64,000 bases of DNA from a virus: positions 96,001 through 160,000 of the IMG/VR virus record IMGVR_UViG_3300042013_000056; one strand, 5' to 3'. A program made the position numbers and the translations under genes. Below the pieces are notes generated by a model. That model was not told where the DNA came from. It worked only from the letters and a program-made list of their open reading frames with translations, and made no database searches. Shown here piece by piece: positions 1,469 through 38,910 of this stretch (position 1 is the stretch's first letter; every line of letters begins with the position of its first letter).

Positions 1469-1705
1469 TCACTTACAAAACAGATCAAACAATGCAGGTT
1501 GTATCAAAGCCTTTTCGTGATGCTCGAACCATCCAGTGAATGGTTTATCACCATAAATGAGCAAACAGAACGGCAGATCATCAGGCGTCCAATAAGTCAT
1601 GGCGTAACCATGGTATCCGAAGCCAATGCCTGAATATCTGGTCACATCCATGAGATATTTCGAAACAAATGATCCCCGACGTTCTTCGACGGGGGTATAA
1701 ATCAT
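1469..1705 (-). CDS. Hypothetical protein
   Basis: 78 aa ORF, start overlaps the stop of the upstream gene. Confidence 0.5.
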   Translation of the reverse strand: MIYTPVEERRGSFVSKYLMDVTRYSGIGFGYHGYAMTYWTPDDLPFCLLIYGDKPFTGWFEHHEKALIQPALFDLFCK

Positions 1706-2763
1706 TCCGCAGTCGAATCAATCAGATTCAACCACTGACCACGAATGGTCAACGCGGTATGGGCACCAACACGTTTCGACAGCAACGACCAGCTTTCGTC
1801 ATCAGACAGTTTGTAGCCTTCGTCTTTCTCGAAGTCTTCCAGAGCATCGCGGGTCAGATCGCCTTGCAGACGACCGAAATCCTTCTGCGTAACAACACCG
1901 ATCTTTGATACAACCGAGTTCAGACGGTTCACGTTGATGTACGAACAGATTTTATCCAACTTGGCTTGGGTGTCTTCGTCCAGAGTCGCAGCCGACTTGA
2001 TCTTGACTTCTTTTTCTTTCTCGTTGAACAGCTTGTTTTTCTGTTTCAAGATCACACGATCACCGTTATCCGTGCGGTAATCTTCTGTGTAACCACGAAT
2101 CACAAAGCCTTCGCCGTAGTCTGCATCGGTTCGAGGATGATTTTGATCAATCCCGTAGGCCGCTGGAACCTTGGTGTAAAACAATGGATCGATTTTGATC
2201 AGTTCTTCGAGGGTATCAACCGCGATTACTGGCACAGTTTTCAGGTGCTTCATGGAATCTGGTTCCATGAAATTCGCGTCTTCCAACAGTTCTTGGATAG
2301 CAACGAACGGGATGTAACGAGATACGCCGGTTTCGAATTCCAGTCGAATATCAAACACCATGAATTCGTTGTCTGGGTGGTAGTTCATACCAGCCTGAAC
2401 CTGCTTGGCACCGGTATTGGTCACGCCTTGGTAACGACCACCGAAGATTTCACCGTAAACCGTCATCTGGTTCAAGGTTGGGAATTCGGCCTTGATCAGT
2501 TCATAGACGGTTTTGATGATTGACGAATACTTGCCGTAGAAACGGGTGTGCCCGTAGAACGTCGAAATATCATCGATCAGACCAGAACGTTTTGCAACGC
2601 GCATGTCACCGTTGGCAACCACGAACGAAAAGTTCGCACCATGGATTTTTTCCAGTGCAACCATGGTATTGCTACCAACAGCAAACGCGCATTTGTCCAA
2701 CCATGCTTGACGGTACGAGTTTTCGATGGAATTGTATTTGGTAAAGACGAGTTTGTTGCTCAC
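1702..2763 (-). CDS. rnlB: RNA ligase 2 (Rnl2 family)
   Basis: Motif I EKIHGANFS, then YGEIFGG, FMVFDI, EGFVIR and KQKNKLFNE. Confidence 0.9.
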   Translation of the reverse strand: MSNKLVFTKYNSIENSYRQAWLDKCAFAVGSNTMVALEKIHGANFSFVVANGDMRVAKRSGLIDDISTFYGHTRFYGKYSSIIKTVYELIKAEFPTLNQMTVYGEIFGGRYQGVTNTGAKQVQAGMNYHPDNEFMVFDIRLEFETGVSRYIPFVAIQELLEDANFMEPDSMKHLKTVPVIAVDTLEELIKIDPLFYTKVPAAYGIDQNHPRTDADYGEGFVIRGYTEDYRTDNGDRVILKQKNKLFNEKEKEVKIKSAATLDEDTQAKLDKICSYINVNRLNSVVSKIGVVTQKDFGRLQGDLTRDALEDFEKDEGYKLSDDESWSLLSKRVGAHTALTIRGQWLNLIDSTAE

Positions 2764-2766
2764 GAA

Positions 2767-3138
2767 TTATTCCTCAGTTTCGGTATCACCGTTCGAGTTC
2801 ATTCCCCGAGCGGCATTTTTAATTGATTTCACTTTGTCTATCAGAATCGATATTTGAAGTTTCGTCATAGGGATTGTCCCATCACCTTGCATCAATGTTG
2901 TATCAATCATCCCTTTCAAACGAAATTCAGCGCGTTTGCTGGCACGTTCGCCATTTATAAACACCTTGATATCGATGAATGTTATTTCCAGACGGTGTTG
3001 CCACAACAACTTCAAGTAATCTTGAATGATGTCAAAGTTGACTGTGATTTCGTCACGGTAATATCTGGTAGTTTCAGCACGGACGAAAACTGAATGAACT
3101 AATCGAACCGTGCTGAAAACACATCTAATTTCTCTCAA
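2767..3138 (-). CDS. Hypothetical protein
   Basis: 123 aa ORF packed in the operon. Confidence 0.55.
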   Translation of the reverse strand: MREIRCVFSTVRLVHSVFVRAETTRYYRDEITVNFDIIQDYLKLLWQHRLEITFIDIKVFINGERASKRAEFRLKGMIDTTLMQGDGTIPMTKLQISILIDKVKSIKNAARGMNSNGDTETEE

Positions 3139-3422
3139 TCGATATCTGGTTCAAGTTTGTCGTACAGGTCATCATCGTAAGACATCTGAATTTCGGTCTT
3201 GATTTTATCCAAGAAGAAATTCGATGCGAACATATCCATGTTCGTGATGAAGTCAGGCAAACCGTCATCGTCGATAGTAATCATGATGTGACGTTTGTTG
3301 TCCATGACACGACTAATCAGTTCGTCTCGATGCTCGACGTATTGCTCTGTTACCGAAGGCAATGTCGTGACATTAATCTTCGGCACCAGAGAAAACACAT
3401 TATTCTTTTTGTCATCAGACAT
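3135..3422 (-). CDS. Hypothetical protein
   Basis: 95 aa ORF with coupled start/stop overlaps. Confidence 0.6.
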   Translation of the reverse strand: MSDDKKNNVFSLVPKINVTTLPSVTEQYVEHRDELISRVMDNKRHIMITIDDDGLPDFITNMDMFASNFFLDKIKTEIQMSYDDDLYDKLEPDID

Positions 3423-4291
3423 TAGAAGTTACCCAGTTGAACTTGGTAGCAACGCAGACCCATCGCACGCCACATGGCAACTACTTGGTTGCGATCATCG
3501 AATACACCACGCACGTTGTAGAACGGTGCGATGTCGCGGTGATAGATATCGTGCTTGATGATCGAATCACGTACCTGAGAGCCCGCAGGGCGCATCAGAA
3601 GCTGATCGCAGATAACATCGTTATCATCCAGCCACTGTTGAGTTTCTTCGCGGCATACACCATCACGGCCACTCACAACGATGATTTCATGACCAGTCTC
3701 GCAAAGATCGCGGGTCATTTGAATTACATCTTCATATGGGGCATCTTTACCGACTTTCTTCCAATCGAACGGTCCACGAACACCTTCCATGTTGGCAAGA
3801 GTTCCATCGATATCGAAAACAAATGCCTTCGGCACACTCGCATTGCTATAATCAGCTTTCTGCAACGGGAACTGTTCACGGTATTCGGTATAAAACCGGG
3901 TAACCACCTTGTCGTCTACAACTTTGGATTGATCATCACGATTGCGGTTGCGTTCGATCAAATCATCCAAGAGCAAATGACCGCCAACATGAATAACATC
4001 AACTTCCGAACCCATAGACGAACAGAAATGAATCCATTTGTTACGTGTTTCCGGGTTGATGCAAGTGTCAGAGATAACAATGCTTTTACCGGCAAGTAAT
4101 GCCCTACGTGCGCGTTCAACTTGAACTGCCGTAACTTTGTTTTCATCAATCCCGCCGCCGTACCACACCCCGTAGAGTTCCATCCGAATAAGGTCACGTT
4201 CAAGTTGCACATAACCTTTATCCACGAATTGACGGGCGACGGTCGATTTACCTGAACCGGGAACGCCCACCAAAATTTTAGTTTTCCGCAC
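3422..4291 (-). CDS. pseT: Polynucleotide 5'-kinase / 3'-phosphatase
   Basis: P-loop GVPGSGKST; HAD motif DIDGTLA; VSGRD; FDDRNQVV. Confidence 0.93.
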   Translation of the reverse strand: MRKTKILVGVPGSGKSTVARQFVDKGYVQLERDLIRMELYGVWYGGGIDENKVTAVQVERARRALLAGKSIVISDTCINPETRNKWIHFCSSMGSEVDVIHVGGHLLLDDLIERNRNRDDQSKVVDDKVVTRFYTEYREQFPLQKADYSNASVPKAFVFDIDGTLANMEGVRGPFDWKKVGKDAPYEDVIQMTRDLCETGHEIIVVSGRDGVCREETQQWLDDNDVICDQLLMRPAGSQVRDSIIKHDIYHRDIAPFYNVRGVFDDRNQVVAMWRAMGLRCYQVQLGNF

Positions 4292-5426
4292 TATCTCTTT
4301 CGAACTCCTTCAAAATATAATCACTGGCATTGCGAATCATCAGTTGTTTAACCTGACTTTCAAAGTCTTTGCCTTGCATGATGCTCATCTGCGCATGGAA
4401 ACCCCATGGTTCAGATGTTGTGTCCCAATATTCTTTGGCTGCAATTGCGTAGGTCTTTCGATCTTCGCCTTGGTGACCGATATGGAACAATTCTACATGG
4501 GTAACAACCCGATTATAAACATTCGAAACAGAAATCTCATATGCATTGATTTTGTCAATAACCAACTGATCACCGGTGAACATGGATTTCAGGTCATCGA
4601 CCTTTTCCATCAGGACCAATTCAATCAAAGCCTTGCTGTTTGATACAGAGTCTTTGTTGCGATGCAAACTCAGATACCAGTCGCCCTTGAGCTTGAAGGG
4701 TACATTGTTTGATGTAATCCCTACACAGCCTTCGGAGCCAACCAGATTCTTGACCGCTTCGACCAGATCACCTTCATATTCGAACTGTTCAACCCAGCAC
4801 CCGAGCAAATCCCACAGTTCCAAGTCTTCGACGATATCAGACCCGTACATAATCCCGGTGTCATTGTCGATCACCGAGAACGCAACCAGAGCTGGTTTTT
4901 CATAACCAACAACGATTCGGTTCCATGGTGCAGTCCATTCGAGATTGACTGTGAAATCCCGTGCTGCAAGGCGTCTCAGATCAGCCAGCAGAGCCGGTTG
5001 GGTCTTGAGCCATGCCATTGCATCATTCGCTTGTTCCGAGCCTGTAGAGCCCTTAGATTTCAAGCGGAGTTCACCATTGGTGTGGATGTAGGTAGACATC
5101 AACGAACCATCTTCCTTGACCATGCACGAATACAAGTCGGTCAAGTCCAAATCCATGGTCATTGGGTTTTCGTTCAGGTTGAAGAATTTCTTCTGTGGTC
5201 GGCAAACCAAATCCACATACGAACCATCACGGCCTACCAGAAACATTGTTCCTCGGCATTCCAATGCACCCGGCAACAGAAAATCTGAGTAAGATGCCAA
5301 CCGATAGTTGAAAATCCTGTACATGGTGTGTTGTTCGTCTGCTGGAAAGTCCTTGAAAAAGAACGCATCCGATTCAGTCAATGCCATAAGGTTTTGATAC
5401 AATTGTTCTGGGGCCACGTTGTTCAT
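4278..5426 (-). CDS. rnlA: RNA ligase 1
   Basis: ECRG, KFFNLNEN, adenylation motif KEDGSL, EGCV, KLKGDWY. Confidence 0.92.
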   Translation of the reverse strand: MNNVAPEQLYQNLMALTESDAFFFKDFPADEQHTMYRIFNYRLASYSDFLLPGALECRGTMFLVGRDGSYVDLVCRPQKKFFNLNENPMTMDLDLTDLYSCMVKEDGSLMSTYIHTNGELRLKSKGSTGSEQANDAMAWLKTQPALLADLRRLAARDFTVNLEWTAPWNRIVVGYEKPALVAFSVIDNDTGIMYGSDIVEDLELWDLLGCWVEQFEYEGDLVEAVKNLVGSEGCVGITSNNVPFKLKGDWYLSLHRNKDSVSNSKALIELVLMEKVDDLKSMFTGDQLVIDKINAYEISVSNVYNRVVTHVELFHIGHQGEDRKTYAIAAKEYWDTTSEPWGFHAQMSIMQGKDFESQVKQLMIRNASDYILKEFERDSAEN

Positions 5427-19544: not shown

Positions 19545-19916
19545 TTACTTCTGACCGATGTTGTACTTGTAGACTTTCTGCCATCCATCGTTTGCATCTG
19601 CAAATGAAATGATTCTGAACAAATTACGTCGTTCGGAAACAGCTTGGCTGTGGTCAACGATACGGCACAGGTTCCAGTCTTCAAGAAGCTTGGCAATGTC
19701 GTTTCGTCTTTCAGTATCTTCATCAGTCATTTTTGCATCACGCCCATCAAGCTCTAACAGCTCTTTGAAATGCACGATGTATACCTTGCCACGTTTGTTT
19801 AGAATGTGGCATGACTGGTAAATGGTTTTGGTTTTGTTGTTGGCTATACCAACTCTGGTCAGTGTTTCCCGGATTTTCGGAAAACTATCTTGACTGGTTA
19901 ATTCAATCTCAATCAT
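19545..19916 (-). CDS. regA: Translational repressor RegA
   Basis: FPKIRETLTRVGIA, QSCHILNKRG, HFKELL. Confidence 0.95.
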   Translation of the reverse strand: MIEIELTSQDSFPKIRETLTRVGIANNKTKTIYQSCHILNKRGKVYIVHFKELLELDGRDAKMTDEDTERRNDIAKLLEDWNLCRIVDHSQAVSERRNLFRIISFADANDGWQKVYKYNIGQK

Positions 19917-19932
19917 CAGTGAAATACTCCTA

Positions 19933-20337
19933 TCACGGTGTATTTACTGATGGCCGCAAGCCACCAAAATTGGTCATCTTTCCGCGAAGTGCTTTCAATT
20001 GATCTTCTGTAAGTCGCTCAATCATGCCAATGGCTTTTCGTTGACTGACTTCGAAGTATTTCATCACATCTTCGAGGTATTCATGTTTCTCAAGTTTGTT
20101 CCACTTACCAAACCGTTTCATCTTACGCAACCCGTAATACAGGTAGTCGTATTGCATCTTGTTTGGCAGATGTGGGTGCATATTCAAAAAATGAACATAC
20201 GGCACGGCATCAATAAAGTTGCTTAAAGCCCGATTGATCACGAACGGTACATAAGCCCGTTCTGCTTCTGGCCCGAATGGAACGTATTTCTTATCGTTGA
20301 TTGACCCAATCAGATCGAATGGGCTTAACTTGCTCAT
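19933..20337 (-). CDS. gp62: Clamp loader small subunit
   Basis: YVPFVINRALS, QYDYLYYGL, KRFGKW; probable start MSKLSPF. Confidence 0.9.
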   Translation of the reverse strand: MSKLSPFDLIGSINDKKYVPFGPEAERAYVPFVINRALSNFIDAVPYVHFLNMHPHLPNKMQYDYLYYGLRKMKRFGKWNKLEKHEYLEDVMKYFEVSQRKAIGMIERLTEDQLKALRGKMTNFGGLRPSVNTP

Positions 20338-27771: not shown

Positions 27772-28029
27772 TTACCATCTTGAATATGCAAGTTCACATG
27801 ATTGCGACCCTGCAACTAAGCGTTGATTTTTAATCAACACACAAATATCGGCTCTGGTGAACTTGTACGGCAAGATAGGTGATGACATATGGTCAGGTCG
27901 GTGGACCCACATTTCAACCATGTCAGAATCAACCGTATGCCACGACAGTTCACGCACACTACCATTGATAAGAAACATACCATTACAACGTCGCAACAGT
28001 ATGTCTATCAGTTCATTCATCGGGATCAT
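27772..28029 (-). CDS. Hypothetical protein
   Basis: ATGA overlap with the Seg gene stop gives start MIPMNE. Confidence 0.55.
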   Translation of the reverse strand: MIPMNELIDILLRRCNGMFLINGSVRELSWHTVDSDMVEMWVHRPDHMSSPILPYKFTRADICVLIKNQRLVAGSQSCELAYSRW

Positions 28030-28694
28030 TGAATTACCATCTTTCGCCCAAGTACCCACCCAGACGGCTCATATTCACCGAGTGTTGCTTTCGGTATCTT
28101 TTTATTGCCTAGGGTTGGGTGTGTTATCCAACAAGTTCCATATTGACTATTATCGGATGGCTTAGTATGTCTCGCACGCGCTTTTTCAGAAATCAACCGT
28201 TTGGTTTCTTCACGATGTGTTTTACCAGTCCAGTCATAGTCAATCTTCTGCGTATCACCAACATGGCGGAGTTTCTTTGCTTCTCGGAATCTTTCTTTAT
28301 TTGCGTCCGTGCTAGACCTAGCTCTGATCACTTTGGTCACAGCACCCCGATACTCAGGGTTTTCCCAATTCCGTTTAGCAATCTCCGATGACTGCCCACC
28401 TTCACCACCAAGCTTTAAATTCAAGCATTGTGGATCGGTTAACGTTTCTGGGTTGACTAGCTCTGATTCTCTCAAAGCCAATTCATCCCTTGATTCATGA
28501 TATTCCAAAATCTCAACACTATGGTTTTCCAGCCCATGTTTTCGAATCGAATATCGCAATCGTTTACCAGACCCAACATAACCATCGTTTAAATCGTCGG
28601 TTGAGTGCATACCGATGTAATATCGGTTTGATACAAGACATGTGGTCTTGTAGATGTAGTGAAATTTTCGTTTCTCTACTCGAACGTAAGTCAT
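28026..28694 (-). mobile_element. Seg-like GIY-YIG homing endonuclease
   Basis: YIYKTTCLVSNRYYIGMH...GYVGSG; NUMOD3-like GKTHREETKRLIS; perfect TATAAATA upstream. Confidence 0.88.
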
Positions 28695-28761: not shown

Positions 28762-28837
28762 TGGTGCAGCCAACGGGACTCGAACCCGTGCTTGGAGAAT
28801 TTAGAGTTCCCTGCCTTGCCAACTTGGCTATGGCTGC
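28762..28837 (-). tRNA. Amber suppressor tRNA (CTA)
   Basis: Canonical cloverleaf, GGGAA-CTCTAAA-TTCTC, TTCGAGT T-loop, CCA. Confidence 0.9.
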
Positions 28838-33740: not shown

Positions 33741-33824
33741 TGGTACGGAATGAGGGATTCGAACCCTCAAGGGCACGGCTTCTAAGGCCGTTAGCTGTGC
33801 CAGATTTGCATTAGCCAATTCCGC
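33741..33824 (-). tRNA. tRNA-Leu(TAG), short variable loop and enlarged D-loop
   Basis: ACGGC-CTTAGAA-GCCGT, CCA. Confidence 0.8.
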
Positions 33825-36591: not shown

Positions 36592-36830
36592 GGTTCAGTC
36601 CGAAGAAGTGGATACTTCTCTTTGAAGCTTTCATGTTGACCACACCCGGAACACACATGAATGTATTTCGGTGGGTAAGTCAGGTAAGCTTCACCGGTTG
36701 CTACGAACTGCCCAACACAATTATTATGATCGGCGTGTACCTGATACGTTCGAACTTCAACCTTGCGTTCTGTTAACAGTGCAGCTCTATTACGCTGAAA
36801 CCGTTCAATCGCTTCTTCTCGGTTCATCAT
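36585..36830 (-). CDS. Hypothetical Zn-ribbon protein
   Basis: HVCSGCG; probable start MMNREE. Confidence 0.5.
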   Translation of the reverse strand: MMNREEAIERFQRNRAALLTERKVEVRTYQVHADHNNCVGQFVATGEAYLTYPPKYIHVCSGCGQHESFKEKYPLLRTEPC

Positions 36831-37243
36831 TTCCCACGTTTCTCCACAAGAGACTTTGCAAAATTGCAAGGCGAACACATGGTGGTTGTATTGCTGACAT
36901 TATCAGCACCACCCGCACTTCTCGCTAACGTATGATCATGAGTAAACAGAATCTCATTGCCCTTTTTATCTTTGCCCCAGAGGTTCAGATGATATGGAAA
37001 ATCATCAGTCTCTCTGACAGGACGTTCCACCGCATAGTAAGACGCGTGCAGCCCACATGCAGAACATTTGGTGCTACGATAAAACGTTCTTAACCGGGTT
37101 CCGCGACTGAACAGCTTGACTTGTTTACCAAACAGTTCAGTTCTGGGTTGATCCTTTGGGGAAGCTCCGACGACAGTTTTCTGTCTAGCCCGAATTTCCT
37201 TGATGTCAACAACACCTATACGATGATAATCTTGCGGCTTCAT
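36827..37243 (-). CDS. HNH-domain protein
   Basis: CSACG...THDHTLARSAGGADNVSN...MCSPCNFAK. Confidence 0.8.
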   Translation of the reverse strand: MKPQDYHRIGVVDIKEIRARQKTVVGASPKDQPRTELFGKQVKLFSRGTRLRTFYRSTKCSACGLHASYYAVERPVRETDDFPYHLNLWGKDKKGNEILFTHDHTLARSAGGADNVSNTTTMCSPCNFAKSLVEKRGK

Positions 37244-37317: not shown

Positions 37318-37514
37318 TGGTCGTGGGGGCCGGACTCGAACCAACGACCTTCGGCTTAGTTGCCGATGCTCTTAAAAACCGATAACCGCCAATGTGTCAT
37401 CCGGAAAGCAACGCCCATATCCACAAAACACTTCTACTGGCATCTAGCGTCTACTATATCGGTCGCGCACCGATGTTCAACATTCGAAATTTAATCCAAC
37501 TGAGCTACCCCACG
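37318..37514 (-). ncRNA. tRNA-like RNA with ~120 nt insertion in the D-loop
   Basis: Acceptor CGTGGGG/CCCCACG-A-CCA, D-stem GCTC/GAGC, TCGGC-AACTAA-GCCGA, TTCGAGT T-loop. Confidence 0.75.
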
Positions 37515-37623
37515 TTGCGCCATGGTTTTAGATTCAGACCCATGAACTGAATATTGCCTTGCGGCTACCTGATACTAAAGTCGGGGTTCCCATTAAAGGG
37601 GTATCCAACAATTGCATCAAATT

Positions 37624-37700
37624 TGGCTGGATATCTTGGAATCGAACCAAGCTCAAGTGATTAACAGTCACCCCGCAGCCGCCATGGCGCGTCATATCCA
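37624..37700 (-). tRNA. tRNA-Asn(GTT), copy 1
   Basis: GGTGA-CTGTTAA-TCACT, G73, CCA. Confidence 0.85.
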
Positions 37701-37708
37701 ATTTAATT

Positions 37709-37784
37709 TGGTGGGGTTCTTTGGATTCGCACCAACAACTGCGAAGTCGATGCCACGCCGCTTTCCTAATTAAGCTACAACCCC
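37709..37784 (-). ncRNA. tRNA-like RNA, degenerate anticodon arm, TGC T-loop
   Basis: GGGGTT/AACCCC-A-CCA, D-arm GCTT-AATTAGGA-AAGC, T-loop TGCGAAT. Confidence 0.65.
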
Positions 37785-37853: not shown

Positions 37854-37930
37854 TGGCTCCGGTAGTAGGACTCGAACCTACGACCTGACGGTTAACAGCC
37901 GCCTGCTCTACCAACTGAGCTATACACGGA
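37854..37930 (-). tRNA. tRNA-Asn(GTT), copy 2
   Basis: GGCGG-CTGTTAA-CCGTC, one-base bulge in the acceptor, CCA. Confidence 0.88.
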
Positions 37931-37940
37931 ATTGAAATTT

Positions 37941-38031
37941 TGGTGGGGAACAGAAGACTTGCACTTCCAACCTTGGCTACTGGCCGACTATACCGGCGCT
38001 CGCCATGCTCTGCTAATTGAGCTAATTCCCC
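37941..38031 (-). ncRNA. tRNA-like RNA with expanded anticodon arm, TGC T-loop
   Basis: GGGGAAT/GTTCCCC-A-CCA, GCTC-AATTAGCA-GAGC, TGGC...GCCA enclosing a hairpin, T-loop TGCAAGT. Confidence 0.7.
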
Positions 38032-38192
38032 AGTACCGAATGCAATGATTGGAGTGGCGTGTACTTAGCCAGCCTCACATTGCATTCTGCTCTGTTGTGG
38101 ATATCCCATTCCCATTGCACGTTCATAACGTCGGTGGAGGCATCGAACCCCGGATAAGACAACAGCATTCTTTTTGATCGTTAGATCGAATT

Positions 38193-38271
38193 TGGTGGGA
38201 AAGGATGGAATTCAACCATCGTATTGCAGTGTCCAATGTTAACTGCTGCTCTTACATTCAGCCACTTTCCC
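38193..38271 (-). ncRNA. tRNA-like RNA with 11-nt anticodon loop
   Basis: GGGAAAG/CTTTCCC-A-CCA; GCAGT-TAACATTGGAC-ACTGC; GATGG-TTGAATT-CCATC. Confidence 0.7.
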
Positions 38272-38427
38272 TTTGGTCACCATCTTATAAACCGCTGATG
38301 AACGCGGTACAAGCTGCCACCGGTTGTTGCTACACCGATTAGACCTGTTGTCCCGAGAAGCCGCTAAGCTTCAATTGGAACCATCATACGTGGCCTTACT
38401 ACGTCTAGTTAGCACTACAGCATTGTT

Positions 38428-38834: not shown

Positions 38835-38910
38835 TGGTGGGAAAGGATGGACTTGCACCACCCCACACCCGCTGTTAGCAGGCAGCTCTAGCTATCTGAG
38901 CTACTTTCCC
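38835..38910 (-). ncRNA. tRNA-like RNA (CTAACAG loop), TGC T-loop
   Basis: GGGAAAG/CTTTCCC-A-CCA, GCTC-AGATAGCTA-GAGC, T-loop TGCAAGT. Confidence 0.7.

What the first reader, a model, noticed from the sequence alone, without database searches (positions are those of the whole stretch)
37318..37514. 197-nt tRNA with a ~120-nt insertion in the D-loop
Seen: complete acceptor (CGTGGGG/CCCCACG-A-CCA), D-stem (GCTC/GAGC), anticodon stem (TCGGC/GCCGA) and T-arm, with ~120 extra nt (about 37374-37494) inside the D-loop. The 3' end resembles fMet tRNA (CCGAAGGTC...CCGGCCCCC). The anticodon arm matches the phage Arg(TCT) tRNA except for a 6-nt AACTAA loop. Established: bacterial tRNA introns are self-splicing and sit in the anticodon loop, and tmRNA replaces the anticodon arm, so this topology fits neither. 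Inference: a tRNA scaffold displaying an extra RNA domain, or a non-canonical intron that the phage RNA ligases could join.
Basis: seen in the sequence. Interest (0 to 1): 0.75.

Follow-up and report, generated by a model that had tools for sequence, protein, structure and literature searches.

The report
Phage tRNA look-alike with D-loop domain
A small group of T4-like Pseudomonas phages carries one conserved gene for a 197-base RNA that is a complete arginine-type tRNA cloverleaf with an extra folded domain of about 120 bases in its D-loop and a crippled anticodon loop. It is most likely a stable tRNA mimic rather than a decoder, an intron-bearing tRNA or a dead gene, and I found no description of it.

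Summary
Window 37318-37514 (minus strand) encodes a 197-nt RNA with a 7-bp acceptor stem, A73 and encoded CCA. It also has a D stem, a 5-bp anticodon stem with a 6-nt loop, and a T arm, with about 122 nt (37373-37494) placed in the D-loop just after G18-G19-A20.

ARAGORN and Rfam miss it. Six homologs have the same 197-198 nt architecture: four metagenomic phage contigs plus Pseudomonas phages Astolliot and Milchi. There is one copy per genome, always followed by an HNH endonuclease gene.

All 21 scaffold base pairs hold in all 7 sequences, and 8 pairs show compensatory double changes. The insert has conserved blocks and a long hairpin in which 9 pairs covary.

No self-splicing core, splicing endonuclease or RtcB was found. 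Removing the insert in silico leaves a 6-nt anticodon loop, or a 7-nt loop with C33 in the Astolliot clade. This argues against an intron.

All members keep the arginyl-tRNA synthetase identity nucleotides A20, C35, U36 or G36, and A73.

My best reading is an unspliced tRNA-like RNA displaying an extra domain. Its function is unknown. The closest precedent is T4 species 1 RNA (rnaC), whose role is also unknown.

The scan's first-stage notes flagged the same architecture in another genome (e1-5625802).

The parts
37318..37514 (-). Whole 197-nt tRNA-like RNA gene (acceptor 5' end at 37514, encoded CCA at 37318-37320)
   Evidence: Sequence. Covariance model R1 scores it 211 bits. There is one copy in the 182,859-bp genome. 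Seven homologs keep the same architecture.
37495..37514 (-). Acceptor 5' strand (positions 1-7), U8 and A9, D-stem 5' strand (10-13), and D-loop start A14 to A20 including G18, G19 and A20
   Evidence: Invariant or compensated in 7 sequences. The D-loop start is identical to that of tRNA-Arg genes recovered by chance.
37373..37494 (-). The ~122-nt insert in the D-loop variable pocket (RNA positions 21-142)
   Evidence: Conserved blocks are 85-100% identical and variable stems 23-85%. No ORF is conserved on either strand. The insert is unique in the window and in the genome.
37458..37474 (-). Insert hairpin H1, whose loop always contains a 4-nt GC palindrome (GCGC or CGCG)
   Evidence: Stem variants are UCGG/CCGA, CCGG/CCGG, UCAG/CUGA and GGC/GCC, with 2 pairs changed on both sides.
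37373..37446 (-). Long irregular hairpin of the insert. Its base is the UAGRNGCC motif paired with the U-rich 3' strand, its middle is variable and covarying, and its tip is a GGG-loop-CCC hairpin at about 37403-37416.
   Evidence: 21 pairs, 9 with changes on both sides, 84% of cells paired. The UAGRNGCC motif is conserved in both clades.
37351..37372 (-). A21, D-stem 3' strand, A26 and the anticodon arm (5-bp stem, 6-nt loop AACUAA at 37356-37361)
   Evidence: The anticodon stem has 4 of 5 pairs with compensatory changes. The loop is 6 nt in all window-type copies and 7 nt (CCGCGAA) in Astolliot and Milchi.
37318..37350 (-). Variable loop, T arm, acceptor 3' strand, A73 and CCA
   Evidence: It is 85% identical to E. 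coli tRNA-Met genes present in four copies per genome.
37520..37565 (-). Conserved upstream leader: a GNRA hairpin (37556-37565) and an H-type pseudoknot (37520-37551) ending 5 nt before the RNA's 5' end
   Evidence: Pseudoknot stem 2 is paired in 25 of 25 cells, with 2 positions changed on both sides (CAUGG, CCGGG, CGUGG). Slid controls pair 8-53%. It is present in 6 of 7 loci, unique in the window, and has no Rfam match.
36827..37243 (-). HNH endonuclease gene (138 aa) directly downstream, with its own promoter-like site
   Evidence: Pfam PF01844 HNH at 22.9 bits against a cut-off of 21.4. It is found downstream of the RNA in 7 of 7 loci. Promoter-like sites lie at 37302-37274 and 37270-37242.

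Best explanation
This is a functional, unspliced tRNA-like non-coding RNA.

Inferred biogenesis: it is transcribed with the minus-strand tRNA cluster. The host tRNA machinery matures it, with RNase P cutting at C1 and 3' trimming to the encoded CCA.

Inferred fold: it adopts a normal L-shape, because every tertiary-contact nucleotide is kept (U8, A14, G15-C48, G18, G19, the T-loop, A26). A two-hairpin domain of about 120 nt projects from the D-loop variable pocket just after A20.

It does not decode codons. Its anticodon loop has 6 nt, or 7 nt with C33 in the sister clade.

It keeps the arginyl-tRNA synthetase identity set (A20, C35, U36 or G36, A73). The most likely mode of action is therefore tRNA-Arg mimicry. 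It could bind, and possibly be charged by, ArgRS. Alternatively it could bind another protein that recognises tRNA-Arg, such as a host anticodon nuclease or another tRNA-directed defence factor. The extra domain would add a second binding surface.

Shown here: the conserved architecture, the covariation, the single-copy synteny, and the absence of known splicing machinery.

Inferred only: maturation, stability, the L-shape, and the mimicry target.
For: - Scaffold: 21 pairs are 100% paired in 7 sequences, with 8 compensatory pairs.
- Insert: the long hairpin has 9 compensatory pairs, and conserved sequence blocks alternate with variable stems.
- Size: total length is fixed at 197-198 nt in two clades whose inserts are strongly diverged.
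- Copy number and position: one copy per genome, in conserved synteny tRNA-Asn, RNA, HNH, tRNA-Thr.
- Natural variants: two further variants from public runs change the insert but keep the scaffold exactly.
- Pairing-preserving changes: all three Astolliot/Milchi differences are transitions that keep G-C or G-U pairing in predicted insert helices.
- Arg identity: A20, C35, U/G36 and A73 are kept in every member. These are the arginine identity set according to PMC9976931.
- Size is no bar: a 183-nt engineered tRNA fusion can still be charged and used (PMC5397188).
- Precedent: T4 encodes rnaC in its tRNA cluster next to a homing endonuclease gene. In my reading of its fold it is tRNA-like. A Northern blot validated its late expression (PMC9697503).
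Against: - There is no direct evidence of a transcript, its ends, or its stability. The RNA-library data are contigs only and could be DNA.
- The insert of the window copy folds no better than shuffled sequence (z = 0.04), and Astolliot's folds worse (z = +1.7). The domain's structure therefore rests on covariation in only five window-type sequences.
- The Astolliot-type insert could not be fitted confidently to the same helices.
- An engineered D-loop insertion at positions 16-18 made a tRNA undetectable in E. coli.
- A bulky insert next to A20 might block ArgRS rather than allow binding.
- Retention of C35 and U36 could be ancestry rather than selection.
Confidence: 0.55

Rival explanations
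1. The insert is an intervening sequence that is cut out and the halves rejoined. The cut would be made by an unrecognised small ribozyme or a nuclease, and the sealing done by the phage's Pnkp with Rnl1 or Rnl2. The product would be a ~77-nt arginine-type tRNA.
For: - The phage encodes Rnl1, Pnkp and Rnl2.
- In the Astolliot clade the insert-deleted sequence is called tRNA-Arg(GCG) by ARAGORN.
- A conserved, structured insert is also what a self-processing element would look like.
- Milchi's annotators' software called it 'tRNA-OTHER'.
Against: - At 122 nt it is too small for group I or II introns, and no ribozyme family matches even at E = 10.
- The genome has no EndA-type endonuclease and no RtcB.
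- No joint skipping the insert appears in four runs, including RNA libraries. This is weak evidence because the data are contigs only.
- The spliced product in the window clade would have a 6-nt anticodon loop, and in the other clade C33 instead of U33. Splicing would therefore not yield a normal decoder.
- T4 Rnl1 is specialised for anticodon-loop breaks (my own knowledge).
Confidence: 0.12
2. The insert exists mainly at the DNA level. It interrupts the recognition site of the adjacent HNH homing endonuclease, so the phage's own copy is immune while insert-less alleles in co-infecting relatives are cut. This is collaborative homing, and the RNA itself has little or no function.
For: - The HNH gene lies directly downstream in 7 of 7 loci and has co-diverged with the RNA (48-68% protein identity).
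- HNH relatives occur elsewhere in unrelated phages without the RNA, as expected for a mobile nuclease.
- T4 SegB sits in the same kind of place.
Against: - Compensatory changes inside the insert, the fixed length and the conserved loop motifs indicate selection on the RNA, not just on disruption of a DNA site.
- No insert-less allele was found in viral, metagenomic or genome collections.
- The scaffold is maintained perfectly.
- This reading is not exclusive of the best explanation.
Confidence: 0.1
3. It is a decaying tRNA pseudogene disrupted by a random insertion.
For: It is not called by ARAGORN or Rfam. The anticodon loop is abnormal.
Against: - 100% pairing with 8 compensatory pairs across two diverged clades.
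- Identical length and single-copy synteny.
- A covarying insert.
Confidence: 0.02

Closest known systems
Bacteriophage T4 species 1 RNA (rnaC, 139 nt) and species 2 RNA (rnaD)
   Same: - A small stable RNA encoded inside the tRNA cluster of a T4-type phage, next to a homing endonuclease gene and a tRNA-Arg.
- rnaC has a canonical T arm, an acceptor-like stem, an anticodon-like stem with a 6-nt loop, and a large extra hairpin on the D-arm side.
- Its function has been unknown since the 1970s (PMC3014915 and PMC9697503).
   Different: - There is no detectable homology: model R1 does not hit rnaC.
- rnaC replaces the D arm with a hairpin, has mismatches in the acceptor stem and lacks G18-G19.
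- The RNA here keeps a full D stem, G18, G19, A20 and a perfect acceptor stem with CCA, and adds the domain inside the D-loop.
- It is 197 nt rather than 139.
Canonical bacterial and phage tRNA-Arg (UCU and ICG types)
   Same: - The D arm is GCUC, then AG(U/C)UGGAU(U)A, then GAGC.
- The anticodon stem is identical to the phage's own tRNA-Arg(TCT).
- A20, C35, U36 or G36, and A73 are present.
   Different: - About 120 extra nt in the D-loop.
- A 6-nt anticodon loop, or C33.
- A C1-G72 first pair.
- The T arm and acceptor half resemble initiator tRNA-Met.
- It falls below Rfam and ARAGORN thresholds.
Bacterial tRNA genes with group I introns; archaeal tRNAs with bulge-helix-bulge introns at non-canonical sites, including the D-loop
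   Same: A tRNA gene interrupted by extra sequence. Archaeal introns can sit in the D-loop (PMC3241643, listed; title and abstract only).
   Different: - No group I core.
- The position is not the anticodon loop.
- No EndA or RtcB is encoded.
- The exons would not make a normal decoder.
tmRNA and Y-RNA-like YrlA (tRNA-mimicking bacterial and phage RNAs)
   Same: tRNA mimicry combined with an extra functional domain.
   Different: - tmRNA lacks the anticodon arm and carries a tag ORF. ARAGORN finds none here.
- In YrlA the termini form the Ro-binding stem rather than an acceptor stem with CCA (my own knowledge).
- There are no Rfam matches.
Engineered aptamer-tRNA fusions (Spinach-tRNA, Masuda et al. 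2017, PMC5397188)
   Same: A large folded RNA domain grafted into a tRNA loop, about 183 nt in total. The V-loop fusion was stable, charged and used in translation.
   Different: - It is artificial.
- The D-loop graft at positions 16-18 was not stably expressed.
- The natural RNA inserts after position 20, sparing G18 and G19.

Membership tests
Canonical tRNA (Rfam RF00005 / ARAGORN) | Four-helix cloverleaf with conserved tertiary nucleotides | tested here: met
   21 of 21 pairs hold in 7 sequences. U8, A14, G18, G19, C48 and the T-loop are present. ARAGORN draws a cloverleaf once the insert is removed.
Canonical tRNA (Rfam RF00005 / ARAGORN) | 7-nt anticodon loop with U33 | tested here: not met
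   The loop is 6 nt (AACUAA, AUCUAA or AUCUGA) in the window clade, and CCGCGAA with C33 in Astolliot and Milchi.
Canonical tRNA (Rfam RF00005 / ARAGORN) | D-loop of about 7-11 nt; detection above the curated score | tested here: not met
   130 nt lie between the D-stem strands. There is no RF00005 match at gathering score or at E = 10, and no ARAGORN call.
tRNA-Arg identity (substrate of bacterial ArgRS) | A20, C35, U36 or G36, and A or G at 73 | tested here: met
   All are present in all 7 sequences if the 6-nt loop is numbered from its 3' side. The identity set comes from PMC9976931. Actual charging cannot be tested with these tools.
Group I intron in a tRNA gene | Group I catalytic core; insertion in the anticodon loop | tested here: not met
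   No Rfam intron or ribozyme match at E = 10. The insert is 122 nt and lies in the D-loop.
Protein-spliced (archaeal-type) tRNA intron | Splicing endonuclease (PF01974) and RtcB-type ligase available | tested here: not met
   There is no match in the complete phage genome, and the control genomes respond as expected. The host genome was not examined.
T4 rnaC (species 1 RNA) | tRNA-like stable RNA in a T4-type phage tRNA cluster beside a homing endonuclease | tested here: met
   The phage is T4-like. The context is given.
T4 rnaC (species 1 RNA) | Sequence and structure homology to rnaC | tested here: not met
   R1 gives no match at rnaC (L037 1909-2047) at E = 1 or below. The D-arm design also differs.
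tmRNA | tRNA-like domain without an anticodon arm, plus a tag reading frame | tested here: not met
   ARAGORN finds no tmRNA. The anticodon arm is present, and no ORF is conserved.

The most novel reading that the evidence does not exclude
The RNA is a new class of effector tRNA. It would be recognised, and perhaps arginylated, by ArgRS, or captured by a host factor that targets tRNA-Arg. It would be excluded from the ribosome by its 6-nt anticodon loop. Its D-loop domain and upstream pseudoknot would give it a second activity. That activity could be sequestering an anticodon nuclease, delivering arginine outside translation, or dimerising through the palindromic GCGC loop.
Probability: 0.2. 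Interest if true: 0.85.

Novelty: new variant of a known kind. Interest (0 to 1): 0.62.

Why it matters
Phage tRNA clusters are now seen as weapons against host tRNA-cleaving defences. The non-tRNA RNAs inside them, however, have had no known function for fifty years, T4 RNA C and D being the classic cases.

This family is a cleaner case than those. It is a perfect L-shaped arginine-type scaffold, deliberately non-decoding, with a conserved extra domain. It occurs in two culturable phages, Milchi on P. poae Z9_5 and Astolliot on P. syringae, so the question can be tested directly.

It also shows that nature tolerates a ~120-nt domain at D-loop position 20a/b. That is useful for RNA engineering and for tRNA gene finders, which miss or mislabel it.

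Tried and rejected
- Motif scans. Scans of viral contigs with the upstream motif and with the D-loop junction motif returned only chance matches in coding DNA, apart from the already known contigs.
- Three-anchor pattern. In viral and metagenome contigs it mostly returned tandem tRNA genes, plus one new homolog, L027.
- Clade-spanning and 3'-half patterns. They found nothing new in viral contigs and nothing in 185,579 prokaryote genomes.
- gp44-anchored retrieval. It gave only one already known contig.
- Unconstrained RNAalifold. It did not recover the D stem, so the scaffold had to be imposed.
- Thermodynamic stability. It is not informative: the whole RNA has z = -1.39 and the insert ranges from z = +1.7 to -2.8.
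- Read laying. Only contigs were available. They gave no information on RNA ends, strand or level, and no insert-less joint. A metatranscriptome contig of 5.7 kb carrying a diverged full-length copy cannot be told apart from DNA.
- preQ1-like reading of the upstream pseudoknot. Rejected: no Rfam match, and the loop that would hold the ligand-pairing C is only 0-2 nt.
- Mimic of the 23S GTPase-associated centre. Considered because of shared short words, but the order of the elements does not fit, so I dropped it.
- AGR 'codon' reading of UAGRNGCC. It cannot be separated from simple A-U/G-U pairing with the U-rich strand.
- Promoter-like site inside the insert (37480-37453). By my reading, its -10 hexamer is not conserved in the homolog sequences.
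- Literature searches. They found no description of this RNA.

Full report
**What is there**

The window is part of a complete 182,859-bp virus record. It belongs to a T4-like phage. The window encodes family B DNA polymerase, the gp44 clamp loader, UvsX, topoisomerase II, T4-type baseplate and tail-tube proteins, and the T4 RNA repair set Rnl1, Pnkp and Rnl2.

A cluster of 32 ARAGORN-called tRNA genes lies on the minus strand between 26.4 and 45 kb.

The candidate lies at 37318-37514 on that strand. It sits between tRNA-Asn (37624-37700) and an HNH endonuclease gene (36827-37243; Pfam HNH). ARAGORN does not call it. Rfam does not call it at gathering threshold, nor at E = 10 on the 451-nt region.

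**Anatomy**

- The 197-nt RNA begins with a 7-bp acceptor stem (C1-G72 first pair) and ends in A73 plus an encoded CCA.
- After U8 and A9 comes the D stem (GCUC/GAGC), then a D-loop that starts normally with A14, G15, U, U, G18, G19, A20.
- About 122 nt follow (37373-37494) before A21 and the 3' strand of the D stem.
- The rest is standard: A26, a 5-bp anticodon stem, a 5-nt variable loop ending in C48, and a T arm with loop UUCGAGU.
- The one abnormal feature outside the D-loop is the anticodon loop, which has six nucleotides (AACUAA).

**Homologs**

BLAST against phage genomes and protein-anchored retrieval through the HNH gene found the same gene in six other places:
- Pseudomonas phages Astolliot and Milchi. 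Milchi's record labels it 'tRNA-OTHER', 194 nt.
- Three IMG/VR contigs.
- One 182.6-kb metagenome contig.

All copies are 197 or 198 nt long. Each genome has exactly one copy.

Synteny is conserved: tRNA-Asn, RNA, HNH, tRNA-Thr, tRNA-Pro, tRNA-Ile, tRNA-Met. The HNH gene follows in 7 of 7 loci.

Pattern scans of IMG/VR, JGI metagenomes and 185,579 prokaryote genomes found no further members and no insert-less allele.

Public runs from rhizosphere, plant and food metagenomes hold close variants. Two variants that I rebuilt from the listed differences keep the scaffold exactly while changing the insert.

**Is it real?**

On the 7-sequence alignment A2, the 21 scaffold pairs are standard pairs in all 147 cells. 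Eight pairs changed on both sides: three in the acceptor stem, four in the anticodon stem and one in the T stem. Slid controls pair only 31-50%. This rules out a pseudogene.

Covariance model R1 scores the true copies at 163-211 bits. Ordinary tRNAs, which match only by deleting the insert, score 74 bits or less.

**The insert**

It is not coding: the longest open frames differ in strand, frame and length among homologs. It alternates conserved blocks with variable stretches:
- the first 20 nt are 85-95% identical;
- the last 13 nt are 85-100% identical;
- the tip hairpin is 56-94% identical;
- the variable stretches are 23-85% identical.

In the five window-type sequences the variable stretches form a long hairpin of 21 pairs, 9 of which changed on both sides. 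A smaller hairpin, H1, has two compensated pairs.

H1's loop always contains a 4-nt GC palindrome. The motif UAGRNGCC at the base of the long hairpin is kept in both clades.

The three differences between Astolliot and Milchi are all transitions that keep pairing in predicted helices.

Several caveats apply:
- Only five or six independent sequences are available.
- The Astolliot-type insert could not be fitted securely to the same helices.
- Folding energies are unremarkable.

**Upstream leader**

Five nucleotides before C1 ends a conserved element. It consists of a GNRA-capped hairpin and an H-type pseudoknot with an A-rich third loop.

The pseudoknot's second stem is paired in every cell, with three different sequence versions. 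It is present in 6 of 7 loci. In Milchi it stays next to the RNA even though tRNA-Asn is missing there. It matches no Rfam family.

**What the scaffold derives from**

- The D arm and anticodon stem are arginine-type. The stem is identical to the phage's own tRNA-Arg(TCT), and the D-loop start equals that of tRNA-Arg genes picked up by chance.
- The T arm and acceptor half of the window clade resemble initiator tRNA-Met.
- With the insert removed in silico, ARAGORN draws a perfect cloverleaf. For the window copy it cannot name an amino acid because of the 6-nt loop. For Astolliot it calls tRNA-Arg(GCG), with C33.
- Every member keeps A20, C35, U36 or G36, and A73. These are the arginine identity set, of which A20 is the main determinant for E. 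coli ArgRS (PMC9976931).

**Intron or domain?**

Arguments against an intron:
- 122 nt is too small for group I or II introns, and nothing in Rfam matches.
- The complete phage genome encodes no splicing endonuclease and no RtcB.
- No contig in four runs skips the insert. This is weak evidence.
- Splicing would leave a tRNA that cannot decode normally.

The phage's Rnl1, Pnkp and Rnl2 supply a ligation chemistry but no cutting step.

Arguments for a displayed domain:
- all nucleotides needed for the L-shape, including G18 and G19, are retained;
- the insert is placed in the solvent-exposed variable pocket after A20;
- the length is fixed;
- loop motifs are conserved.

Engineering work shows that a 183-nt tRNA fusion can be stable and active, although a graft at D-loop positions 16-18 was not (PMC5397188).

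**Comparison with known systems**

The nearest described thing is T4 species 1 RNA (rnaC). It lies in the T4 tRNA cluster after segB and tRNA-Arg. It folds with a T arm, an acceptor-like stem, a 6-nt-loop anticodon-like stem and a long hairpin on the D side. Its function is still unknown.

Model R1 detects no homology to rnaC, and the design differs: rnaC replaces the D arm, whereas this RNA inserts into the D-loop. The RNA here is not a tmRNA, a Y-RNA-like RNA, or an intron-bearing tRNA by their defining features (see the membership table).

The paper describing Milchi only counts tRNAs. Five other literature searches found no description.

First-stage notes of this scan flagged the same architecture in another genome (e1-5625802). 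Follow-up notes describe other phage tRNAs with D-loop domains (e1-5632697, e1-3037527). These are unverified leads, not support.

**Verdict**

What the RNA does is not known.

I commit, at moderate confidence, to an unspliced, non-decoding tRNA-Arg mimic whose added domain provides a second interaction surface. The adjacent HNH gene probably explains how the cassette is kept or spread, rather than what the RNA does.

Noticed in passing
window 37941-38037 (-): Another non-canonical tRNA-like gene that ARAGORN and Rfam miss. It has a 7-bp acceptor stem plus ACCA, a GCUC/GAGC D stem with a D-loop lacking GG, a branched or extended anticodon arm, and an unusual T-loop (UGCAAGU).
   Followed up: partly
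window 38193-38275 (-): A tRNA-like sequence whose 3' end is 90% identical over 30 nt to the 3' end of tRNA-Val(AAC) at 38835-38910. It has an odd anticodon region and is not called by ARAGORN or Rfam. It is possibly a diverged paralog.
   Followed up: no
window 37858-37929, 37712-37784, 33744-33824 (-): Rfam calls tRNAs here (58, 30 and 42 bits) that ARAGORN does not. By my reading, the first looks like a second tRNA-Asn(GUU) with a bulged U in its acceptor stem.
   Followed up: partly
window 28762-28837 (-): ARAGORN calls a tRNA with anticodon CUA, labelled Pyl. It is an amber-suppressor-type tRNA in the same cluster.
   Followed up: no
window 1702-5426 (-): Rnl2, Pnkp and Rnl1 genes are clustered together. 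This is the full T4-type tRNA repair kit, which suggests the host range includes strains with anticodon nucleases.
   Followed up: partly
window 28026-28694 (-): A weak SegE-type GIY-YIG match, below the Pfam cut-off. It may be a second homing endonuclease inside the tRNA region.
   Followed up: no
window 37517-37698, in read-laying runs X3 and X7: In related phages from food and plant metagenomes, the spacer and tRNA-Asn between the RNA and the next tRNA are replaced by unrelated sequence of 138-188 nt. This part of the cluster is a recombination hot spot.
   Followed up: no
G003 (contig of L008) 19624-19721 and 20016-20116: Two tRNA-like matches of 98 and 101 nt to model R1 (33-38 bits). They are unusually long for tRNAs and were not examined.
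   Followed up: no
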